Under the pieces are notes generated by a model. The model was not told the origin of the DNA. It did not search any database and saw only the letters and a program-made list of their open reading frames with translations. Made by a program: the position numbers and the translations under genes. DNA of 62,284 bases, the filler included. It is 12 parts of 12 records of this genome, joined end to end, with 100 filler letters (N's around TTAATTAATTAA, not from the genome) between each part and the next. Parts side by side here need not be neighbours in the genome. Positions count along the whole stretch, not along the records: positions 19,306 to 24,430 come from SRR15195285_3649; 11 more parts are not named here. The stretch is one strand, 5' to 3'. Positions 11,287 through 24,531 of this stretch are shown one piece after another. Numbering within the stretch: the first letter of the stretch is position 1; the number at the start of each line of letters is the position of its first letter.

Positions 11287-11386
11287 NNNNNNNNNNNNNN
11301 NNNNNNNNNNNNNNNNNNNNNNNNNNNNNNTTAATTAATTAANNNNNNNNNNNNNNNNNNNNNNNNNNNNNNNNNNNNNNNNNNNN
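11287..11386. other. Artificial contig-joining spacer (44 N + TTAATTAATTAA + 44 N); first of 11
   Basis: Identical 100-nt spacers with stop codons in all six frames also at 19206-19305, 24431-24530, 28675-28774, 31846-31945, 35376-35475, 39774-39873, 43463-43562, 46941-47040, 54021-54120 and 58552-58651. Confidence 0.98.
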
Positions 11387-13266: not shown

Positions 13267-16200
13267 TCATCTTTTCCAGAAAGCTTTGCGGCCGGAAGGC
13301 TCTGGCGCCGGTGCTGCACCAGCACCGCCACCCGACTCCTCTGAGTTGAACTGCTCTTGCAACTGCCGCGCCATTTCTTCATCACTCATCGCTACTGACG
13401 AGGCCGGCGTTGGCGCAGGGGCAGGTGCCGGGACAGAAGCAGCAGCTCCACCAGACGACTCTTCCCTGTCAAACTGCTCCTGCAGCATTCGGGCCATCTC
13501 CTCATCGGACACGCCAGCGCCGCCGCCGCCGCCACCACCACCTCCTCCACCACCTCCGCCGCCACTGCCACCACCGCCACTGCTGCCAGAAACGCTCGAT
13601 GGAACGATGCCGAACGGAACCTGGGAGGAGCCCTGGCTTGCGTAGCTGTTGGTCGCCGCAGCGGGTGGTGGCGCTAGAGAGCCGACGGTCGGGCGTTGCT
13701 GCGGCGGCTGTTGCTGCGGCATGCCACCGAAAGGCTGCGCACCGTATGGAAGCTGCGGCTGCTGTGCAGGTGGCTGGTAGGCCTGCTGCGGCGGCGGCTG
13801 CATCTGCACCGAACCACCGACGTACATGGGTTGTTGTGGCTGCTGCTGATGCGCTGGCGGCGGCTGATATGCCTGCTGTGGGGCCGGCGGCTGGTATGCC
13901 GGCTGCGGTGCCGGCGGCTGACCGTAACCACCAGCCATCATGGGAGTTGCCATGCCATGGCCACCCATATCGGCAGGCGGAGCGGGGTAACCACCGATTC
14001 CGCCACCCGTCGATGGATGGTGTACCGGCGGAGCGGCGGCTGCTGGCGCTACCTTCTCCAGCACTCTGTCACTGCTATCATCGTTCGGCAAGACCAACCC
14101 ACCAATCGTTCGGCGCAATCGCTTCACTAGCGGAATCATCAGCTCGTCGCCGGAAGACTCCACGCCTTCCAACACCGATAAGAAGTCTGGGTCACGCAGA
14201 GTGAATCGGTTTGATCTCTGGTAGGCAAGGTTCAGTAGGCAAGTCAGGATCCACATCGAAAGCTCCTCGTTGTCGAAATTGCGCATCACGTGGATCAAGG
14301 ACGGAATACCTTCTGCTGCTCCAATCGCACGTCTGCCTTCATCGTTCATTGACAAATAACAGAGCAGCTCTGAGGCAATCTTTACGCTGGACTCGTCCAT
14401 CTGAGAGAGCATGGACACTAGTGAGGTAATGGCAGCCCCGGAACGCTCACGTACGCTCTCGCTGCCATCGCTGTACGCTGAAGTAGCCGCGGCGGGTGAG
14501 CTTCGAAGGATTGCGGCGCGGCCAGTTTCAGAGTGCGCGATTCTAACCAACACTTCCCCGGCACCGTGGCACACGCGGCTATCGTCCGCGTATAGCAGGC
14601 CGACCAGACGATCCACACCGCCAGCTTGGCACAGAGCTTCTCGACAAATGTCATCGACAGCGAAATTGTTCAATGCCGAACATATGCTGAGTTGGACTGA
14701 TATATCGTTGTCGCTGTCGGTGCCGCTACTGCTGTTCAACAGCGCTACCATGCCCGTCATATGTTCAAGAGCAGTTGAGGTTGCCTCCAGCAGATCAGAG
14801 CTGCCACAGACATGTTCCACGGACTCAGCGCACACTGAGTATCCCGCAAGGCAGTTCGCCACCGACTCAGTCAACTCAATGCGCTCGGCTTGTGTCATCT
14901 GCGCTAGGGCCGGTGTCGGCGGCGTAGAACTACTGCCACCTTCGCTCGTCAACTCCTGCAGCATTCGCAAGACTTGGGCAAGGCCTCCCTCCTCAATAAA
15001 CTTCTCTGCGATCTGTAGGCTGTGACACAGCTCGACCATGCAGCTCGATGCGCTCAGGCGCAACTCCTTGTCGTCCGTGTTGTTCGCTAGGACGTCCACC
15101 AGCAGCGGCAGAGTCTCCTCCTGTGCCATCGTCAACCGGCATTTCTGATGCTGTGCGAGTGCACTTAACCCAGCAAGCCCAAGCCGACGAATTTGAACTT
15201 TGTGTGAACCTTGGCCGCGGCTGGCCTGTTTCACGGCAATACAAATCGACTTGTACCCTTCGAGCCGGGCCACCATGGTGGCACAGTCTTCATTGCGGCA
15301 AGAATTGACCACGATTCTCAGGATGTTCTCCTTCAGCGTATCCTTGGTAATCCCCGCTGATAGCTGGTGTAGTAGTGTACGCAGCGCTTCGGGCTTTCTG
15401 GCCAGCCCATCCACGCAGCTGTCTTGGGCAGAAAGCCGCGCAAGGATGCCGATGACCTTCTCGACATTCGCACCACCGCCGGTATCCTGTACGCCCACAA
15501 GCTGGTCGATAAACTGCTCAATCACCTGGCGCTCGTTGGTGTCCCGTTGAAGCTGGAGGTCCAAATCTCCGTCTGACATGAGAATTTCCATCGCCGCGAC
15601 CCCGTTCCGAGTCTTGTGCTGTGAGTCTTTGTTTAGTGAAACCAGGCGATTCAGGGCGCCGAATCCTCCATTTGCGACAAATTGTGTACGGAAATCTTTG
15701 TTGGATAGCAGGTTGGTGACAATGATCGACGCGAACTCTCGTACAGTCTTGCCCTTAGCAGAAAATGTGCCCACAAGAGTTGACATGAACCCTGGCTCAG
15801 CCATCAGTCTACCGACAGTCTTGGCACCGTTCTTGCCATCGCCAAGAGCTGCTGCCAGCGCTTTGACGCCAATCTCCTGTGCCTCTTCATCTTCGCTCGA
15901 CATAAATCGCAGCATGACTCCAACCCGGGCGTTCTGGACCATCTTGTTGCGCATCTGAGGATCACAGCTCGCAAGGTTGAGCAGAAGATAAATGGCCTGC
16001 TGCTGCACTCCCTCGTCGTATTTCTCGGCTAGTTCAAAAAGTGTGTCCAGGCAGGTGGATCCCATGTGGCTCGCTGCACGCGCGTCCTGCGATAGAACTG
16101 CAAGTGCCTGCAGTGCGTCGTGCGCCAGGGTCTGCGCGTTTCTGTCACCGCTGACCGTACCGACGCGGAGCAGTTGCACGAGTGGCTCGACAGCACGTGC

Positions 16201-19148
16201 CTCAACAATTGCTGCAACGTACTGCGGTCCGCCAGCACGTGCCATGGCAGCGATAGCTGCGGCAGCATGACGTTGGACGTCCACAGAATCCTGCCGGGAC
16301 AAGAGCGGGATTAGAGCCATGTGGCTACCGCATGACAGCAAAGCACGCGCGTTCTCTGCATCAAGGACCATGTTCGAGATGCATTCCGAGGACTCATACA
16401 GCATCGACGGGTCCGGTGAGCAGAGCGTCTCGACCAGCTTTGGCAATCCGTTGTACTCACGAATTGTACGCCAGTGCTGGCTGTCTCGAGCGAACGCCAT
16501 GACCTGCTTGATCGCAGAGTGAGCAGTCGCTGGGTCAGGCGAGTTCATCATTTGCACAAGTTGCGGCAACATTCCGGCATCCATTAGTTGGGCTTGCTTG
16601 TAGTCGCTGTTGCGGGTAATCTGGTCCACAACCCGCATAGTGGCGGCCTGCATACCTCCCTGTGAAGACTTGAGGAGGTGCATGAAAGGTTGCAGGTCGA
16701 TCTGGTCAGCAACTTCGGGTTCTGTGGCGAGGCTGGCAAGGGCATAGACAGCCGCTTGTTTCAGCTCCTCGTCGTCCTTGCCCAGCAGTGTCTTCAGCAG
16801 TGGCACCCCGCCGAAGTGAAACACCTCCAGGCGTAGGTTGTGGCCGAGAGCCTCATGGGACATGATGTTCGCAAGAGTAGATGCACAGCCTTTCTGCACC
16901 GCCATATATGAGGATGATAGGCCTGTGATAAGGGCTGTCGGAAGCTGCGCCTCCTGCAACATCGCTAGATGGTTTGTGCTGATTTGGTCTGTATGGCTCG
17001 TTAGGCAGCCGAACATGGCCGCCACAGCCGACTCTGCTTGTCCGTCGCGGCTTGGCACCCGAACGAGCTCGACCAGCTGCTTGAGCATGTGGCGGAACGT
17101 GCTGAGCGTCTCCCAACAGGCAGGCGCGTTGTGCGGCCAGCGCGAAAAGTTTCTTAGCGACTCGGCAGCCAGGACTTTGGCTTCCTGCGACGAGACATCT
17201 CCTTGCTGGTCGCTGATGCCCACGAGAAGCGAAAAGCATGCAGTGAAGATCTCGACTGGGGCTTGCGTGTGCACCTCCGAAAAGGAGAGCATTTTCACCA
17301 AGAAGGTGGCGTGTGATCGAATATTCGATGATGGGTGCTGCATAAGCTTCGGCAGGGCCCCCAGATAATTCGCTTCGTGCATTCGGTCGCCAATTGAGGT
17401 ATCAGAGTTGACAACTGCGGTCAGAAGGCCCAGAGCGATGGAAAGAACATTGGCGTCCGTGTTGTTGAGCAGCAGGTGCAGCATTGATTGGATCCCGACG
17501 TCCTGGCGCATGAAATGGTCACTGAAAGAGCCGGCGTTTCGGCCCGATGCGAGCATGTTCAGCATTTCGAGAGAGAACGATTGCATTTTCGGGTCATGCG
17601 CCGAGTGGAGGAACTTCTCAACACCTCCGGCGCTCAGGATTCTTCCCTGCGCGTCGTCATTGTCGTTCACCAGTGGCTGCAAGGCCTTGCAAGCTTGCTC
17701 TCTCACCTCACTTGAATGTGAAGAGAGCAGATCCATGAGGAAGCTCAGGCCACCTTGCTGATTGACCTCGTTTGCGTTCGCCCTGCAGCCATTGCAGAGC
17801 TTGCCCAGGGCTGTGCACGCGACCTCCAGGTGTTCCGGGTAGTCGCTGCTCAGCATAGGAATCAGCACGCTCAGTCCGTCAGCTTCGCGCACAGCATTCT
17901 GCGTTGAGACATCGCCGTCCGCCAGCGTGGCCAAAGCGTGTATCGCCTGCATCTTTACATCATCGCCTCCGCTCCGCGCTATGCTGACGATGTCACGCAC
18001 CACGCCTTTGTCGACGAGCACTTGCTTGGTTTCGCGGCGGCTCGCCATTTTCGAGACGGCTGTGAGAGCAGTGAGCGCCATCGGCCCACCGATCGAGCAC
18101 TGCTCCACCACCTTCGCGGTGACTTTCTCCGGAAGGGGATCCGTCGCGACGGCGCAATACTCCAGCAGCTCGCGTGTCGCCAGCTGTTTCATGTGTTCTT
18201 CCTCTGCCCGTGTGATCAACGAGAACACACGCTCCACGCTGGAGCTGCGGCCCTGGGACAGGAACGCGTGGCAGTCCAAGCAGCACCGCTGCTCGCCTTT
18301 CAGATCGAGCGACGCCATCTCGATGTTGTTCGGGCTGCAGTACTGGCACACACAGCGGCCGCAGCTGCGGCAGTGATGGCGCCTGATTGTCTGGGTGAAC
18401 TTGATATTGCACGCCGTGCACTCTGTGGCGTCCGGCTCCTTCGGCGGCACCGCGCCGGCGCACGACGAATCCGCACCGAACGCCTGCGATGCGCTGCTGA
18501 TGGACAGCTGCTCGCCCCAGCTGTCCCACTTGTTGCCACCGCCAGAAGCTCCGGAGAAGGTCGGCGCAAGGTTGGGCGTGAAGTCCGGAAAGCTGGGCTG
18601 GCCCATACCGCCCATCCCAGCGCCGCCACCGCCAGCTGCGCCCCACCCAGCGCCGCCGCCACCTCCGCCGCTCCCGGGCACGGGCATCGGCGCGACTGCT
18701 GGAGGGGGCTGAACCTGCGGCGGCGGCGCCATCTGCAGCCGCGGATCCTCCCACGTCGTTTGCTGCAGCACGCACACGCCCGACAAACAAGCTCAGCGTG
18801 GGCTGTCGCTCTCCCCCTCGCCCCGCCCCTGCACGCTGGTGGGCTGGGCAAGGGCGGCGTGCGGACGCACCTGTGTGTTGTGGTCGATGAAGAACGTGCG
18901 CCCGTCATCCGTCGCGCGAGCCTCCCAGCCCTGTGGCACTGCGAGAACCACCAGCCGCACACGAGACAACTCAGTTTCTCCAGCGAGCGTGCGCGAGAAC
19001 CCTCAAGCCTACCCGCGCGCAAGCCCCAGACAAGCCACTTCGCCAGGCACCTCCATCAGCGAGCGCGCGCGCGAGACAGAGAGAGGCAGGGCGTCAGGCA
19101 GGGCGTCAGGGAGAGGGCGGGGGCAAGGACCATACATTGCGCTTGCAT
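13267..19148 (-). CDS. WW - FYVE - armadillo repeat - Pro/Gln-rich - 2x UIM/MIU-like protein; exons 19148-19136, 18938-18871, 18762-13267
   Basis: Splicing GT-AG introns 18939-19135 and 18763-18870 gives [35 protein letters not shown] (WW domain). FYVE: CTAC...RRHHCRSCGRCVCQYCS...CCLDC. A long ARM-repeat array follows, then SDEEMARxLQEQF twice near the C-terminus. Confidence 0.85.
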
Positions 19149-19305
19149 CGCCGCAGTCGCCGTCTCGCAGCCCCTCCCCTCCCCCCCACCCCCCCCCCCC
19201 CCCCCNNNNNNNNNNNNNNNNNNNNNNNNNNNNNNNNNNNNNNNNNNNNTTAATTAATTAANNNNNNNNNNNNNNNNNNNNNNNNNNNNNNNNNNNNNNN
19301 NNNNN

Positions 19306-21656
19306 TGCTGTTTCTGCTGCTGATCTATTTCTGCGTAACGACCGGTTGTATATTCTGACAACTCCTCTGTTGAGTACCCGTCGATTTTCTGGCCATCATC
19401 GTACTCGACTTTGTACTTCCCGTCTCGACCGGTCATGACTGTCCCCTCGAAGACCTGCGTTCGGCCGTCCCGAGACACGTTGAAAGGAACATTGACCCGC
19501 TGAAACAGCAATCGATCGACTAATGCACTACGGACCTTTGTTCCAGTGTACTCTCGCTTTTCGCAGTCTTCAAACTCGACTAACAGTTTTCCGCTCACTA
19601 AAAGCTTTTGTACGACACCGAGATGCCATCCACTCGAGCTGAATAATACGCGAACTCGCAAGCCGACTAGTAGTGACGCAGAAACCACTCGAGGCTCACC
19701 AGGTTTTGCAGATAGTTCATCAGGACTTTTGCACTTGGAGGCATTTGATGCGCGTGCGCTATCTGCTTTGCCGTCAAGGTCCAGAGTTAGTGCAGTCGAT
19801 GACTCTGGCACCTGACCAACCGTCTCAGGACAAAGGGCTCCAATTGTCCCGTTCTCATTATCCCAGTCGAACCATCGCCGCAGCCTACCTTGCCCAGCTG
19901 ACTCGTCGAGATCTAGTGGGTCGAGGACAGATGAGTGAGCAACAGAATCTGGATGCTCACGGTGGCTCATTTTCTGCCGCCGCCCACTCTGCGTCACATT
20001 CACTACGTCCAACTCCCACACGCACGCTGTCGTATCCTCTGAGTGGATGTGTCGTATCAGCTGTAGCTCGAACCACTCGTTGTGCTGCTCATCAATTTGG
20101 TCGTCGAAGACGCCGTTGTACCTACACCATCCAATATCAATATATACGCCTAGCAGCAAAACTTTACAACTGCTGCTAATCGTCTCTGGCTGTTTCACAA
20201 ACATTGGGCGGAGTAGGTACTGCAACAGGAGCTTTTGTCCAGGTAACAGATCCTGAAGCTCATGACGCTGCAGCAAACAATTATTGGCAGCAAGGATCTT
20301 CGCCTGGCGCAGCGCCTCCCTGCTCTTCTTGTACACTGGTGGCTCGGGAAGATCGATGCGGATGTCTCCGATGTGGCGCACATTCTGCGACGAGACGAGG
20401 CTGACCGTGCCTTCGTATAGCCAGTTCACCAAGAGCTTGCCGTCGTGCTGCCGCTCGCCCTTAGCCAAGTCCAGCACGTTGTCCAGGGAGGTCCGGTCGG
20501 CACCCTTGCCCGAGTCAGGCAAGTCACTGAAGTCGCACAGCCGACCCGGCTGCCACTTGCTGTTCCAAAATGCCCAGCACACCATCGTTGATTGAACTGG
20601 ATGAAACTCGCCGCAGATCTGCGCGATCCGTTCGCTTCGCCACGGTTGCTCGTCGATCCGCTTCGCTAAGGCGCGAAGCTGATCGCACTGCCGCCTCTGT
20701 GCCACGGGGATGGTGAGGGAGCCTTGATTTGTTCGCCAGCATGGGTTGTCGCAGCCGCCTGCGCGCTGTTGCTCCTTCCAGCCGTTGTCGAAAGGTGAAA
20801 GCCCTGGGTTCACGACCACTCCCATCAGCCTTCGCTCGGAGGTCTGAGCCTGCTTGCATACAGCATCGTATACACGCTCGGCCAGTGCTGGAGGAATCAC
20901 GGCTGCTGCTTCGCCACGTAGCGTATCCCTGATCCTATACCGGTGCTTGCCGCTGGTGTGGTGCGACTCGGGGCGTTGGCCGTCGCAGCGTTGATCGTGC
21001 AGATGGTGCAGGTCGTTCCACAGCGTGGTCGGTTTCTTCGGAAAGGCCCCGAAGCAGCAGTAGTCGAATGCATTCCTCTTGACCGTCGCGAGGACAGGGA
21101 ATGCGCCAAGGTCTCCACCCCGAGGATTCTCAATGACAAAGCCGCGCGACGGTTGCAAGATGCGGACGAACTCCAGGCAGCGTTGGACGAGCTCTAGTGC
21201 TCCCACATAGTTGCGGTCCTGGCGCTTTTTCCGGTTCATCCGCGAGAACTCGGTGCACGGGGGTGAGAACCACAGGAAGTCTGGCCGACCATACAGCTTC
21301 TTCACCACGTGCGGACAGAGGCTGCGGATATCGCAGCAAATCGTGGGCTCGAAGCGATCCTCAATGTCCACTGCGCCCGGACGCAGCGACGCACGCAATC
21401 AGCAGCTGCTCACGAAGCGTTACGAGCATGCATTGGACGTAGCTGCGCTGCTCTGTGGGTGCTGTCACGCATGCCCGAGGTCGTCGGCTTTGAATGCGTG
21501 CGCACCGGTGACCGCCTGCCAGCCGTGCTGCTCAAACATGGTGGAGACTGCGTGCTGGCCACAGAAGAATTCAATGATCAGCTTCTTGCGGGCCTGGCGG
21601 TACCGCCCATCTCCGCCTCCTGTGCCCAGCTTCTTCCGGGGCGCCCTGGCCGCCAT
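19306..21656 (-). CDS. C5-cytosine DNA methyltransferase-like domain fused to PWWP-like and tandem Tudor-like domains (3' truncated); intron 21371-21505
   Basis: Spliced product reads IIEFFCGQHAVS...GWQAVTVDIEDRFEPTICCDI...LWFSPPCTEFS...FVIENP...DYCCFGAFPKKPTTLWN...IPPALAERV (motifs I, IV with catalytic PC, VI, VIII, X-like). Downstream: VCWAFWNSKWQPGRL...LLVNW (PWWP-like) and two VGLRVRVLF..W/F.G.V....Y/L.VEF/YE/DD (Tudor-like) units. Confidence 0.75.
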
Positions 21657-23279
21657 TGCACCCCACGTCCTAGGACGCGCAACAGCGACTAATAGTGCGA
21701 CGGACTACGTAACGCGTAGGGAGAAACGTAAGGTGTGTACGCCGGCGTGCGTATGCCCGGCGCGCGGGCGCGCGCGCGGGACGACGCGCGGACGACCGAG
21801 ACGCCGGCGCCGGTTCCGTTCGCGGTCGGCGAATCGAGCGAAGTCGACTCGCATTTCTCTCAATTCCTGCAGAATCAGCTGATTCACAATCGGAATTGAC
21901 TGTCGGAATTGACTGAGCGCTCCTATATAAAAGTTTGCTGTATTTAAAAAATGGACTTTGTGTGTGATGCCGAGACGCCGTTGACAGACACAATTGCAAT
22001 CCGCGCACACCAGCGCGCAGGAGAGAGAAGAGGGAGGCGATCGTGTGAGGTGTGCATTTTCTTTTTGCGTTTGAGCAGGTGGGCGCCTCCCATCCACCTT
22101 CAGCATGGTGGATGGGCTAGCACGGCGCAATTTGTGTGGCTGCCTAGTACACAGAGAAATGATGATGAGGGAAAGGTAAAGTAGTTGTCTGTCTAGACAA
22201 GACAGCCCACTGCACCGAGCCACCCCTGGCCTACACTGCTAGCGAAGCTATGTTGCAACATGGCCAGTGATTCGTCGGGAGTATCGTCGATCCCGTCAAG
22301 AAAATTCGCAAACAGCTCGCTCTGGTCGGTCAGCGTAGAGCTCGCATCGGAGCTGTCCGACCACCCTGCAATCAACCACGTGACGTCCGAGCAGAGTATC
22401 CTTCAAGCAAAGTTACAATAAAACACAATAATAAAGAGAAAAGATCAAAACAAAAGATATTCAGGAGTGGAGTCCACAATTTTGGCACCAACCAAACAGT
22501 TTCTCCATGCCAGTATTCAGTTTCCCGCGCTGTCAGGTGACTGCTTCACGAATGGCTCAGACAGAGTCCTTGCCCACGCTGTCCTGCGGCTGGATACCAG
22601 CCTGCCGAACGCCACCCAGTGACTTTTTCAGTCGTCCGCTGGATACCAGCAGTTGACACAACGATGGTCCCGGTATGCCAGACCTGCTGGCGGTTAGCCT
22701 ACCAGCAGCGGAATTACGGGTATCGATATCGTTGTAGTGTGGGGAGGATGAAGCCGTGTCAGGTAACCGCCGCCGGAGCGGGGGAGCGCCGGCCCGGGGG
22801 GCGGGGGTTGCTGCACCTTATTTGGGGGAGGACATGACGCCTGAAGACATCGGAGTTTTCTTGGAGCAAAAACGCCTGCTGGATATCGTCAATCCGAAAA
22901 CCCTTCGGAGTTTTGAACAAGCCATTCCCGGCAGCGGATAGAACGCTAGGAGTTGCATCCACGGATGCTAATGTATCTCCTTTCTCTCTCTGCGACTTAG
23001 GGGTCCGAGATACTGAATGCTGAATACTGAAATGCTGTGGTGATGAATGCTGAAGCTTCAGTATTTAGCATCGCGTTGACCCTAACCACAATGTGGATCG
23101 TATGCGCAAACCTAGGCGCGTGTGTTGGGGCCAAGTGTGTGGAAGAAACATAGCAGAATCGCCATAGCCATAATGATGGAAATATGCCCAGTGTCACGGT
23201 TATACGGCTGGTTGTACAGAGGCTAATTGACGATTGCAACAGCGCACATTCATTATAATGAGATGTTGTCTACCGCTCT

Positions 23280-24387
23280 TCAGCGTTCAAGCCGTATGTC
23301 TGCTTGATAACAACAAAGAACGTCGTCTTGAGTGGATATTGAAAGGCAACAATCAGGTCATTTGCAAAAACGTTAAGCGTAAAATTCGCCAGATTAAAGA
23401 TAATTATAGCATCAACGCACCCGCGCAGTTTGTCCACACTTGCGACGTAGCCTCACAGTCCCATCGCCAACCGAGCACATAGTCTCCGTGTGGCAGATAT
23501 GCGGGGATCTTGAGCACATCCAGAATTCCTAGCGCAAAGCCACCCTTCTGGATTGAGTCGCCTTTCTTGGCTTGGAAGCCTTTGCTGGCTTGACTCTCTG
23601 TCCAATTTGCAAGTGGCGGGAATGCTGGCCTGGTTTTGCTTTGTCCGCAGCGCGAGCAGTCAGAGCCTGGGGTTTCGGGGCAGGGCTCACACGGGCCTTC
23701 GTAACTTTTCTTGTCGCCAGGAGTGCAGGCATGTGGCGTTGAGGCATTGTCGTGTGGGCCCGGCAGGCACCGTGGGCCGAGGTCAGTCGGCGGAATGGGG
23801 ATCCTTGACCATGTGCTGCCAGGTGGCTGCGTGCCGGTATTGACGTGCAGTGGCGTGATCGGGATCTTGCTTCCATCTGGTAAGAGCAACGCGGACTTGT
23901 GTGGTACGAAGTCCAGCGGATGACTCTGGAAGCACGCCTCGGTAAGCGGAGACGATGATGGGCAGAGCCTGTACGAGTAGCCACCGCCGTGATTCTGAAG
24001 TAGCTGCCACGTCACCGTGGCCACTCCTCCGATCTTCCACGTAGTGTTCGTCGGTAGCTTTGGAAGCGTCGAGCCGTTCTTGCCGTGGTACGCATTGGTG
24101 GTATTGGTGTACATCCCTGCCTCAGGGGCGTTGGTGCTCCAGGGCGTGCCACCGGCGAGGCCACACACATCCGCAATCGGCGCGTTGCCTGGGGCTCGCC
24201 AAGGATTATGGCGGTAGATATCGAATGGTGAGTTGGCGGTGGCGTTGAGGTTCACGCTCCGAGCATGGTCTGGCAGCGTGGGCTTCTTGCCCTTGTGGCA
24301 CAAGTCGGTCTGCCGCCGCCCGCTCCAGTGGTCACATTTCTCGCACCCGATGAAGCAGCCCTGTGAAAACCAGAACCCCACGTTCAA
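23280..24387 (-). CDS. LPMO-like (histidine-brace, AA15/AA17-like) Cys-rich protein, 5' truncated; last intron 23300-23420
   Basis: NPWRAPG, NHGGGYSYRLCP, LTEACFQ, YVLGWRWDCEATSQVWTNCA; splicing gives the C-terminus CADIRLER*, matching the paralogue at 30681. The N-terminal His exon is lost at the contig edge. Confidence 0.7.
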
Positions 24388-24403
24388 ACAGGTGCCGGCT
24401 ACC

Positions 24404-24430
24404 GAGAGAGAGAGAGAGAGAGAGAGAGAG
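24404..24430. repeat. (GA)n microsatellite at contig end
   Basis: Uninterrupted GAGAGA run up to the spacer. Confidence 0.9.
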
Positions 24431-24531
24431 NNNNNNNNNNNNNNNNNNNNNNNNNNNNNNNNNNNNNNNNNNNNTTAATTAATTAANNNNNNNNNNNNNN
24501 NNNNNNNNNNNNNNNNNNNNNNNNNNNNNNG

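What the first reader, a model, noticed from the sequence alone, without database searches (positions are those of the whole stretch)
19306..21656. Compact phage/virus-like C5 DNA methyltransferase fused to chromatin-reader-like domains
Seen: a short (about 240 aa) N-terminal MTase with SPPC, IENP and YCCFG..KKPT.LW, interrupted by an intron, followed by PWWP-like (about 20590-20370) and two Tudor-like (about 19675-19340) segments. Established: DNMT1 and DNMT3 carry readers N-terminal to a larger catalytic domain with ENV and QxRxR motifs. From recall, the ENP/YCxxG/KPT variant is typical of small MTases of phages, large DNA viruses and mobile elements. Inference: an independently domesticated, possibly histone-mark-guided DNMT outside the named families. 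Motif I is divergent (FCGQH), so activity is not certain.
Basis: partly seen in the sequence, partly recalled or inferred. Interest (0 to 1): 0.7.

Follow-up and report, generated by a model that had tools for sequence, protein, structure and literature searches.

The report
Phage-type DNA methyltransferase with Tudor readers
A marine protist gene joins a very small, virus-type DNA cytosine methyltransferase to histone-reader-like Tudor domains, which suggests a separately acquired enzyme that writes DNA methylation where chromatin marks direct it.

Summary
On the minus strand, an ATG at 21656 opens a 51-codon exon with motif I. A 135-nt GT..AG intron with three in-frame stops follows, then one long frame with SPPC, IENP, YCCFG..KKPT.LW and IPPAL. 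Spliced, the N-terminus matches a profile of ~200-aa "mini" C5 methyltransferases end to end (positions 3-203 of 205, E 3.9e-55). It keeps 10 of 10 invariant residues. Named members of that family are phage and archaeal-virus methylases, and phrog_757 matches at E 3.3e-10.

The two C-terminal segments fold as a tandem Tudor. Best Foldseek matches are SETDB1, BAHCC1 and 53BP1 tandem Tudors; best VIA match is the RDM15 Tudor, Z 7.5. One segment is homologous to Agenet repeats (hhalign 96.5%). The PWWP-like segment could not be confirmed: the model failed at pLDDT 39 and only a language-model lead supports it.

The window is 12 contigs joined by artificial linkers, so 19306 is a contig end, not the gene's end. 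Full-length relatives are 1016-1155 aa. Orthologues, a shared intron position, dN/dS of about 0.05 in the catalytic half and non-transposon neighbours indicate a host gene. I read it as a probable histone-read, DNA-write orphan DNMT. Activity and targeting are untested.

The parts
21506..21656 (-). Exon 1: ATG at 21656-21654, a basic N-terminal tail, and motif I (IIEFFCGQHAVS; FCGQH at 21552-21566). Ends in phase 1.
   Evidence: Sequence and translation. It is the first ATG after an in-frame stop. Motif I aligns with L-E-L-F-[SC]-G-T-x-S of the family.
21371..21505 (-). Intron 1: 135 nt, GT..AG, with in-frame TGA, TAA and TGA.
   Evidence: Removing it gives ...AVT-V-DIE..., which restores the family alignment and full profile coverage. 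Relatives P0004, P0005, P0009 and P0011 break or carry an insert at the same point. No spliced RNA contig was seen.
20221..21370 (-). Exon 2: the rest of the methyltransferase, a conserved linker, the PWWP-like block and the start of the middle block.
   Evidence: Open frame and alignment with orthologues.
20841..21584 (-). Mini C5 cytosine methyltransferase domain (spliced residues 25-227), interrupted by intron 1. Motif IV SPPC 21255-21266, motif VI IENP 21123-21134, YCCFG..KKPTTLW from 21062, IPPAL 20883-20900.
   Evidence: HMM of 24 family members: positions 3-203 of 205, E 3.9e-55. phrog_757 E 3.3e-10. 10 of 10 invariant and 9 of 10 near-invariant residues kept. Pfam PF00145 only sub-threshold, 17.4 bits against a cut-off of 22, on exon 2 alone.
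20364..20618 (-). PWWP-like conserved block (ICGEF..VCWAFWNSKWQPGRL..LLVNWLYEGTVSLV..NVRHIGD). Fold not established.
   Evidence: Conserved in orthologues, 75% aa identity and dN/dS 0.17 against L001. Language-model lead to PWWP clusters at 0.87. Model failed. No Pfam, PDB or hhalign support.
20122..20220 (-). Probable intron 2: 99 nt, GT..AG, in frame, without a stop. It encodes 33 residues that the orthologues lack.
   Evidence: Gap of 33 columns in P0004, P0005 and P0019. Absent from the genomic orthologue L001. Boundaries. Against: one RNA-library contig (X1 record 3, 20195-20342) reads 26 nt into it, so it is unspliced RNA or DNA.
19306..20121 (-). Exon 3 (partial): the rest of the middle conserved block, an acidic linker and the tandem Tudor. 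It runs off the contig end without a stop.
   Evidence: P0003 is 100% identical and continues beyond ...EIDQQQKQ.
19983..20240 (-). Middle conserved block (GQKLLLQ-YNGVFDDQIDEQHNEWFELQL..WELDVVNVTQSG), interrupted by intron 2. Possibly another small barrel; unassigned.
   Evidence: Conserved in 4 relatives. Only faint language-model leads to Spin/Ssty, Tudor and Agenet clusters at 0.79-0.81. hhalign probability <=1.9%.
19527..19658 (-). Tudor-like domain 1 (LRVRVLFSSSGWHLGVV..LLVEFEDCEKREY..).
   Evidence: Model m7b4f63cb0836 has strands 12-48 plus a helix. VIA best match is the RDM15 Tudor: Z 7.5, rmsd 2.5, 54 residues aligned of 58. hhalign to domain 2: 91.4%, E 8.9e-7.
19350..19499 (-). Tudor/Agenet-like domain 2 (VNVPFNV..QVFEGTV..GKYKVEYDDGQKIDGY..).
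   Evidence: Pfam Agenet sub-threshold, E 4.6e-4, 21.1 bits against a cut-off of 27. phmmer link to P0022 at E 8.7e-13; P0022 is a 16-repeat Agenet/Tudor protein, Pfam E 2.2e-83. hhalign to those repeats: 96.5%, E 8.2e-10. Foldseek tandem-Tudor matches.
19206..19305 (.). Artificial contig joint (N44-TTAATTAATTAA-N44). It is not biological sequence, and the gene is cut here.
   Evidence: 11 such joints in the window.

Best explanation
This is a real nuclear gene of a marine microbial eukaryote. It has one sure intron and one probable intron, and the contig end cuts it short.

Its N-terminus is a complete, probably active member of a very large family of ~200-aa 'mini' C5 cytosine methyltransferases. 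That family is otherwise known from phages, archaeal viruses and metagenomes. It carries motif I, the SAM-binding acids, the catalytic Pro-Cys, ENP, a DYCxFG..K.T.W block in place of QxRxR, a short Cys/His segment in place of a large target-recognition domain, and IPPxL.

Behind the enzyme, a eukaryote-specific extension carries several conserved blocks. One is a tandem Tudor/Agenet (Royal-family) module. Full-length relatives carry two further blocks, and their profile similarity to Agenet repeats is weak.

Most likely mechanism: the Royal-family modules dock the protein on methylated histone tails, or on another methylated chromatin protein. The mini-methyltransferase then puts 5-methylcytosine on nearby DNA. 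This is a 'histone-read, DNA-write' enzyme assembled from a captured virus or prokaryote-type catalytic domain.

Shown: gene model, family membership, retention of catalytic residues, Tudor fold, purifying selection, orthologues. Inferred: DNA as substrate, activity, histone binding, nuclear role.
For: Gene model and full profile coverage after splicing.

Family size and naming: 736 hits at E<=0.001. At least 5644 proteins at E<=1e-5 among 8000 scored, and several of the JGI rows that carry a name read 'site-specific DNA-cytosine methylase'. 24 phage records match by tblastn, including records annotated as C-5 cytosine DNA methylase. phrog_757 matches at E 3.3e-10.

Catalytic residues: 10 of 10 invariant and 9 of 10 near-invariant kept.

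Tudor fold: model pLDDT 76.9. Foldseek gives 6 matches at E<=0.001, all tandem or triple Tudor proteins (SETDB1, BAHCC1, 53BP1) at probability 1.00. VIA's best match is the RDM15 Tudor, Z 7.5. hhalign to Agenet repeats gives 96.5%.

Host gene: three near-full-length homologues or copies share the layout, P0003 at 100% identity and P0004 and P0005 at 64-66%. The intron-1 position is shared. dN/dS against L001 is 0.049 in the methyltransferase half and 0.155 overall, with dS saturated. The orthologue's 3' neighbour is an intron-bearing hydantoinase/oxoprolinase gene. No repeats or transposon domains lie on the window contig.

Precedent: bdelloid N4CMT, a bacterial methyltransferase with a C-terminal chromodomain (PMC8885841, abstract and passages).
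Against: No activity, methylome or binding data exist.

Pfam's C5 model is below its cut-off on exon 2 alone. No member of the mini family has a solved structure: the profile reaches only motifs I-VI of solved enzymes at E>=0.002. I found no paper testing a member's activity; for the listed HFTV1 papers I saw only the listing.

TM-scores for the tandem Tudor are low (0.27-0.39) and the VIA Z is middling. KOW, SH3 and other small barrels score nearly as well. The Trp of the putative cage in Tudor 1 is Arg in P0005 and P0010 (printout).

The PWWP-like and middle blocks have no confirmed fold.

RNA-library contigs cover exons but also intron sequence, so neither expression nor splicing is shown.

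CpG observed/expected is 0.98 over the 12 contigs, so there is no sign of pervasive CpG methylation in this mainly genic sample.
Confidence: 0.6

Rival explanations
1. The enzyme acts on RNA (as DNMT2 does on tRNA) or on another substrate. The Tudor modules would then bind methyl-arginine proteins of RNP complexes rather than histones.
For: DNMT2/tRNA-C38 methyltransferases are among the best solved matches of the family profile, E 0.006, level with M.HaeIII at 0.0024. SMN and TDRD3 methyl-arginine Tudors are among the VIA matches at Z 5.7-6.4. PMC12344493 notes that for orphan DNMTs it is hard to predict DNA or RNA as substrate (passage).
Against: Named family members sit in phage and archaeal-virus genomes, where DNA modification is the usual role. 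Sources call them DNA-cytosine methylases. The best Foldseek matches are histone-lysine readers: SETDB1, BAHCC1 and 53BP1.
Confidence: 0.12
2. It is a catalytically dead or regulatory pseudo-enzyme, like DNMT3L. It would be kept for its reader array or as a partner of another DNMT.
For: Motif I departs from the family's G-T-x-S (G-Q-H-A), and one near-invariant Leu is Phe. The second Cys of the family's frequent C..C..H segment is missing. There is no CpG depletion.
Against: The catalytic Cys, the ENP Glu and both SAM-binding Asp residues are kept, along with all 10 invariant residues. The methyltransferase half is the most constrained part of the protein, at 85% identity and dN/dS 0.049.
Confidence: 0.1
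3. The gene belongs to a mobile element or an endogenised virus rather than to the host's own chromatin machinery. The readers would steer the element or self-methylate it, as proposed for retrotransposon DNMTs.
For: The same mini-methyltransferase family occurs inside LTR-retrotransposon polyproteins with integrase, Tf2-type SH3, chromodomain and Dam (P0048, P0078, P0101, P0117). DNMT-bearing retrotransposons are documented (PMC5890265, passages; preprint 10.64898/2026.05.21.726589, passages). Only about 2.8 kb of 5' flank, and no 3' flank, is visible in the window.
Against: There are introns. Only 1 copy is found in the 62-kb window. No direct or inverted repeats of 20 nt or more bound the gene. 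No RT, integrase or transposase lies on the window contig or on L001, whose neighbour is an oxoprolinase gene. In the tree the clade lies in the half that holds the three named phage enzymes, away from the four LTR-borne ones. Forcing them together costs 137 lnL, p-AU 0.0255, but the group was named after the tree was seen and a long branch is involved.
Confidence: 0.08
4. The fusion is an assembly or gene-calling artefact: two adjacent genes read as one.
For: The assembly is highly fragmented (12 contigs in 62 kb). P0003 shows a suspicious repeated C-terminal block.
Against: One uninterrupted frame runs from the methyltransferase to the Tudor domains (21398 down to 19306). The same continuous frame is present on the independent metagenome contig L001, 925 codons, and in P0004.
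Confidence: 0.03

Closest known systems
Phage and archaeal-virus 'mini' C5 cytosine methyltransferases (phrog_757; Bacillus phage Bcp1 gp133, 221 aa; Haloferax tailed virus 1 gp60, 218 aa; Inoviridae sp. methyltransferase, 218 aa)
   Same: The same catalytic domain from end to end: L-x-L-F-[SC]-G, [ST]-[LV]-D, C-D-I, SPPC, ENP, DYC.[YF]G..K.T.W, a Cys/His segment and IPP.L.
   Different: Those are stand-alone ~200-220-aa proteins of viruses. This one is a eukaryotic, intron-bearing gene with over 800 aa of extra C-terminal sequence. It sits on a long branch (stem 1.31) within the family.
Bdelloid rotifer N4CMT (PMC8885841)
   Same: A prokaryote-type DNA methyltransferase at the N-terminus fused to a C-terminal Royal-family reader; the paper's 'histone-read-DNA-write' layout (abstract and passages).
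   Different: N4CMT is an N4-cytosine amino-methyltransferase with a single HP1-type chromodomain. Here the enzyme is a C5 type with a tandem Tudor/Agenet module plus further blocks. N4CMT's activity is shown; this one's is not.
DNMT3 (PWWP/ADD), plant CMT (chromodomain), DNMT5b with Tudor domains (PMC9998398)
   Same: C5 methyltransferases coupled to histone-mark readers. Tudor domains are reported in some DNMT5b proteins (passages).
   Different: Those have large catalytic domains with ENV and QxRxR (textbook knowledge; not tested here). DNMT3 and DNMT5b carry their readers N-terminal to the catalytic domain, and CMT embeds its chromodomain within it. The mini-family profile reaches DNMT1 only at E 0.05-0.3 over motifs IV-VI, and no DNMT3 chain is listed.
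'Orphan' eukaryotic DNMTs (PMC12344493) and retrotransposon DNMTs (SymbioLINE-DNMT, PMC5890265; EpiLTRs, preprint 10.64898/2026.05.21.726589)
   Same: Lineage-restricted eukaryotic C5 methyltransferases outside DNMT1/3/5, thought to come from viral or prokaryotic sources. Members of the same mini family sit in LTR elements with chromodomain and Dam.
   Different: Orphans are described as 'generally sparse, lacking companion domains' (passage), whereas this one has a reader array. It is not in a retrotransposon polyprotein. Whether it is among the published orphans I could not check, because the supplements are closed. The precomputed Pfam field is empty for P0003-P0005, so Pfam-based surveys may miss it.

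Membership tests
Mini C5 cytosine methyltransferases (phrog_757-type, ~200-220 aa) | Full-length match to the family profile | tested here: met
   The spliced protein matches positions 3-203 of 205 of an HMM built from 24 members, E 3.9e-55, 178.9 bits. phrog_757 E 3.3e-10 on exon 2 alone. Caveat: the 24 members were found with this protein as the query.
Mini C5 cytosine methyltransferases (phrog_757-type, ~200-220 aa) | Family-invariant residues (SPPC Ser and Cys, ENP Asn and Pro, DYC Cys, K.T, Cys and His of the short segment, IPPxL Leu) | tested here: met
   10 of 10 invariant and 9 of 10 near-invariant columns kept. The exception is Leu to Phe in motif I.
C5 DNA methyltransferase superfamily (Pfam PF00145) | Score above Pfam's gathering threshold | tested here: not met
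   17.4 bits against a cut-off of 22, covering profile positions 42-111 only, on the exon-2 translation. The spliced protein was not submitted. Some stand-alone family members pass, for example P0014 at 25.2 and P0035 at 26.3.
C5 DNA methyltransferase superfamily (Pfam PF00145) | Motifs I (FxGxG-like), IV (PC) and VI (ENV-like) | tested here: met
   FFCGQH, SPPC and IENP are present and align with the motifs of M.HaeIII and DNMT2 in the family-profile alignment.
C5 DNA methyltransferase superfamily (Pfam PF00145) | Motif VIII QxRxR and a large target-recognition domain | tested here: not met
   These are replaced by DYCCFG..KKPTTLW and a ~30-aa Cys/His segment. No profile match lies beyond motif VI.
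Named eukaryotic DNMT families (DNMT1-6) | Phylogenetic nesting inside a named clade | not tested
   No reference DNMT1-6 sequences were available from the tools for a joint tree. Indirect evidence only: the family profile reaches DNMT1 and DNMT2 structures at E 0.006-0.3 over the N-terminal motifs, and no DNMT3 chain is among the 45 listed.
Tudor/Agenet (Royal family) | Five-stranded SH3-like barrel fold, in tandem | tested here: met
   Model pLDDT 76.9 with two 4-strand-plus-helix units. Foldseek's best matches are SETDB1, BAHCC1 and 53BP1 tandem Tudors, E 2.5e-4 to 1e-3, probability 1.00, but TM only about 0.3. VIA gives RDM15 Tudor Z 7.5, SMN Tudor 6.4 and a PWWP 6.2; KOW and SH3 barrels score similarly.
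Tudor/Agenet (Royal family) | Sequence homology to a recognised family | tested here: met
   Pfam Agenet is sub-threshold, 21.1 bits against 27. Domain 2 against the Agenet repeats of P0022 (Pfam E 2.2e-83) gives hhalign 96.5%, E 8.2e-10. Domain 1 against domain 2 gives 91.4%.
Tudor/Agenet (Royal family) | Aromatic cage for methyl-lysine or methyl-arginine | tested here: inconclusive
   Aromatic residues stand where I expect cage residues from recalled Tudor structures: F, F, Y, Y with DDG in domain 2, and F, W, F, Y in domain 1. This is by sequence reading only. The W of domain 1 is R in two relatives. No coordinates were inspected.
PWWP | PWWP fold or profile match | tested here: inconclusive
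   Pfam gave 0 families at E<=10. The PDB profile search gave nothing relevant. The model failed at pLDDT 39.1. The language-model search placed PWWP clusters first, at 0.87 with 168 shared features, which the tool rates as a lead only. VCWAFWNSKWQPGRL resembles the recalled PWWP beta1-beta2 signature.

The most novel reading that the evidence does not exclude
A lineage of marine protists independently captured a phage or virus-type mini C5 methyltransferase and built it into a multivalent histone-mark-guided DNA methylation writer. The catalytic domain is N-terminal, and an array of Royal-family modules lies C-terminal. This would be a further, separate origin of a chromatin-coupled 5mC system in eukaryotes, made from the smallest known kind of C5 catalytic domain. 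Pfam-based DNMT surveys may well not see it.
Probability: 0.35. Interest if true: 0.75.

Novelty: new variant of a known kind. Interest (0 to 1): 0.6.

Why it matters
Eukaryotic 5mC systems are thought to rest on a few ancient DNMT families plus scattered 'orphans', which are described as lacking companion domains (PMC12344493, passage). This gene would be an orphan that did acquire a reader array. It would parallel the rotifer N4CMT case, but for 5mC and with Tudor/Agenet modules.

It also shows that an abundant viral mini-methyltransferase family has entered eukaryotic chromatin contexts more than once. Other proteins in the search join it to PHD, U-box, chromodomain and integrase, or Dam.

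A ~200-aa catalytic domain almost without a recognition domain could be a useful minimal writer for studying or engineering targeted methylation. The precomputed Pfam field is empty for the three full-length relatives, so comparable genes may be under-counted in DNMT censuses.

Tried and rejected
- Own-genome search: no genome is held for this window.
- phmmer of the exon-2 protein against PDB: 0 hits at E<=10.
- NCBIfam: nothing for the target.
- AlphaFold of residues 217-480 (PWWP-like plus middle block, with the 33 intron-encoded residues and a 7-row alignment): mean pLDDT 39.1, so it was not used for fold search.
- PWWP tests that gave nothing: Pfam on 7 members, PDB profile, hhalign against the Tudor and Agenet profiles.
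- Middle block: only faint language-model leads.
The single proteins P0018 and P0016 found no relative in viral contigs, so the viral or cellular carriers of the nearest small relatives stay unknown.
- Cluster look-ups gave almost no names.
- Metatranscriptome contigs (4 runs, 2 studies) cover parts of the exons at 95-100% identity, but also intron 1 and 26 nt of intron 2. No spliced joint was seen. Several bins (19828-20175 and others) have no cover. None of this shows expression, splicing or their absence.
- CpG observed/expected is 0.98, which is uninformative for targeted methylation.
- AU test of 'target clade plus four LTR-borne enzymes': p 0.0255. It was framed after seeing the tree, and the four are not a clade themselves, so it is weak.
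- The search of earlier findings: nothing by place, sequence or words.
- Literature: searches found no paper describing a mini C5 methyltransferase fused to Tudor domains. Subscription papers and supplements were not visible.
- I considered that the ORF at 13267-18792 was a neighbour. I rejected this because it lies across an artificial joint.
Full report
**What the window is.** The 62,284-base window is not one stretch of chromosome. It is 12 contigs of 3.1-11.3 kb joined by 11 artificial N44-TTAATTAATTAA-N44 linkers. The finding lies on the 5125-nt contig 19306-24430. Its lower coordinate, 19306, is simply the contig edge. The large ORF at 13267-18792 lies across a joint and is not a neighbour. 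Composition (GC 0.53-0.60) and dinucleotide biases are alike across the contigs.

**Gene model.** The gene is on the minus strand.
- An ATG at 21656 is the first ATG after an in-frame stop. It opens exon 1 (21656-21506), which encodes a basic tail and IIEFFCGQHAVS.
- A 135-nt GT..AG intron (21505-21371) carries in-frame TGA, TAA and TGA. Splicing in phase 1 gives ...AVT-V-DIEDRF.... This restores the alignment with every family member and gives full profile coverage.
- Relatives P0004, P0005 and P0009 start just before the same point. P0011 reads through an insert there. The intron position therefore appears shared.
- A second, probable intron (20220-20122, 99 nt, GT..AG) is in frame and has no stop. 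Its 33 residues are absent from P0004, P0005 and P0019 and from the genomic orthologue L001. One RNA-library contig, however, reads 26 nt into it. Its splicing is therefore not shown.
- The frame then runs to 19306 without a stop. P0003 is 100% identical to the window's translation over the 644 residues they share, and it continues for about 510 more residues.

**The methyltransferase.** Pfam sees only a sub-threshold C5 match, 17.4 bits over profile positions 42-111. No PDB sequence matches. A full scan of 1.84 billion representatives gave 736 proteins at E<=0.001. Apart from a few close relatives, these are ~200-230-aa proteins that match residues 1-170 of the exon-2 translation and start about 28 residues earlier, which is the length of exon 1's motif I.

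PHROGs names the family: phrog_757, 'DNA methyltransferase', E 3.3e-10. A profile search with 24 members found at least 5644 proteins at E<=1e-5 among the 8000 candidates scored. Most rows carry no name; several JGI rows read 'site-specific DNA-cytosine methylase'. tblastn found 24 phage records. They include Bacillus phage Bcp1 gp133 ('C-5 cytosine-specific DNA methylase I', 221 aa), Haloferax tailed virus 1 gp60 (218 aa) and an Inoviridae methyltransferase (218 aa).

The spliced target matches an HMM of the 24 members over positions 3-203 of 205, at E 3.9e-55. It keeps 10 of 10 invariant and 9 of 10 near-invariant residues. The Gln-His after the Gly is unusual.

The family profile reaches solved C5 enzymes only over motifs I-VI: HaeIII at E 0.0024, DNMT2 at 0.006, DNMT1 at 0.05-0.3, and no DNMT3 chain among the 45 listed. 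QxRxR and a large recognition domain are replaced by DYCxFG..K.T.W and a short Cys/His segment. This is a distant, minimal branch of the C5 superfamily with no solved member.

**Where the catalytic domain came from.** I built a quick maximum-likelihood tree of 135 domains. 155 sequences went in: 7 had no methyltransferase match, and 13 were dropped for covering under 150 of 205 profile positions.
- The target, P0004 and P0005 form one clade (SH-aLRT 100) on a long stem (1.31).
- The clade lies in the half of the tree (53 rows, 97) that holds the three named phage enzymes.
- It is apart from four LTR-retrotransposon-borne members and a PHD-fused one.
- Forcing the target clade together with the four LTR-borne members costs 137 lnL, p-AU 0.0255. 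That test was framed after seeing the tree and involves a long branch.
- No reference DNMT1-6 sequences could be included.

The last 128 residues on the contig fold at mean pLDDT 76.9 into two four-strand-plus-helix barrels.
- Foldseek's six matches at E<=0.001 are SETDB1, BAHCC1 and 53BP1 tandem or triple Tudors, at probability 1.00 and TM about 0.3. Spindlin and FXR1 follow.
- An independent scan of 48,161 chains puts the Arabidopsis RDM15 Tudor first: Z 7.5, rmsd 2.5, 54 residues aligned of 58. SMN Tudor, a PWWP, Spindlin-4 and BAHCC1 follow. KOW and SH3 barrels reach similar Z values, so the fold alone is not decisive.
- Sequence evidence closes the gap. Domain 2 hits P0022 by phmmer. P0022 is a 16-repeat protein that Pfam scores as Agenet at E 2.2e-83. 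hhalign gives domain 2 against those repeats 96.5% (E 8.2e-10) and domain 1 against domain 2 91.4%.
- Aromatic residues stand at the usual cage positions. This rests on sequence reading and recalled structures only.

The PWWP-like block is conserved (75% identity to L001, dN/dS 0.17) and resembles the recalled PWWP beta1-beta2 signature. Every formal test was empty, though, and the model failed. Only a language-model lead at 0.87 points to PWWP. The middle block is likewise unassigned. Full-length relatives carry two further conserved blocks that match Agenet repeats only weakly (24-28%). These lie beyond the window.

**Host gene or mobile element.**
- Only one copy is in the window, and no bounding repeats are present.
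- The upstream ORF (23404-24430) has no Pfam family, so no transposon domain.
- On the orthologous metagenome contig L001, the 925-codon frame ends in a stop. It is followed, convergently, by an intron-split hydantoinase/oxoprolinase gene.
- dN/dS against L001 is 0.049 in the methyltransferase half and 0.155 overall, with dS saturated.
- Short contigs from four marine metatranscriptome runs of two studies match the gene. They also cover intron sequence, so they prove neither expression nor splicing.

**Reading.** I conclude that this is a host gene encoding a captured virus or prokaryote-type mini C5 methyltransferase fused to a Royal-family reader array. The closest working analogue is rotifer N4CMT, with its 'histone-read-DNA-write' layout (PMC8885841). 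Recent surveys describe orphan eukaryotic DNMTs as mostly lacking companion domains (PMC12344493), and Tudor domains are reported only on DNMT5b (PMC9998398). My searches found no description of this architecture; supplements and subscription papers were not visible. Activity, substrate, sequence specificity and the bound mark are all inferred. CpG observed/expected of 0.98 gives no sign of pervasive CpG methylation in these contigs.

Noticed in passing
window 11287-11386, 19206-19305, 24431-24530 and 8 more joints: The window is 12 short contigs (3.1-11.3 kb) concatenated with N44-TTAATTAATTAA-N44 linkers. Adjacency across joints is artificial, and any first-stage finding that spans or relies on neighbours across a joint is unsafe.
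   Followed up: yes
proteins P0048, P0078, P0101, P0117 (hits): The same mini C5 methyltransferase domain sits in LTR-retrotransposon-type polyproteins. P0101 carries integrase, a Tf2-type SH3 and a chromodomain. P0078 carries the Tf2-type SH3 plus a sub-threshold Dam match, P0048 a Dam adenine-methyltransferase domain, and P0117 the Tf2-type SH3. These resemble the 'EpiLTR' elements of a 2026 preprint. Whether they are the same elements was not checked.
   Followed up: partly
proteins P0143, P0114, P0100: There are further eukaryote-style fusions of the mini methyltransferase. P0143 carries a C-terminal PHD finger, and P0114 a C-terminal U-box. P0100 groups with P0114 in the tree. The family therefore seems to have been recruited to chromatin or ubiquitin contexts several times.
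   Followed up: partly
protein P0022 (1405 aa): A protein made of 16 tandem Agenet/Tudor repeats (Pfam Agenet E 2.2e-83), Ala/Gly-rich between the repeats. It served here as a bridge for assigning Tudor domain 2.
   Followed up: partly
protein P0003, C-terminal ~200 residues: The public protein identical to the window's gene repeats one block twice: ..EIDQQQKQHQDQAQE.. and the last barrel, IPINSSRIPRVGDRVEVEY..RWR. This is either a real tandem duplication or an assembly artefact. The orthologues P0004 and P0005 have one copy.
   Followed up: no
window 23404-24430 (-): A Cys-rich ORF of over 341 aa runs off the other end of the same contig, upstream of the methyltransferase gene. It has no Pfam family at E<=0.001.
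   Followed up: partly
window 13267-18792 (-): An 1841-aa open frame on the neighbouring contig, with a FYVE-like Cys cluster, a long region that looks like armadillo/HEAT repeats and a Pro/Gln-rich tail. Read by eye only.
   Followed up: no
window 21385-21395 (inside intron 1): One metatranscriptome contig (X1 record 7) has 62 other letters in place of 9 here. This suggests an intron length polymorphism in a closely related strain.
   Followed up: no
L001 2837-7106 (-): The orthologue's neighbour is a fused hydantoinase A/B (5-oxoprolinase-type) gene split into three frames by introns. It is useful as a marker for testing synteny once longer assemblies exist.
   Followed up: partly
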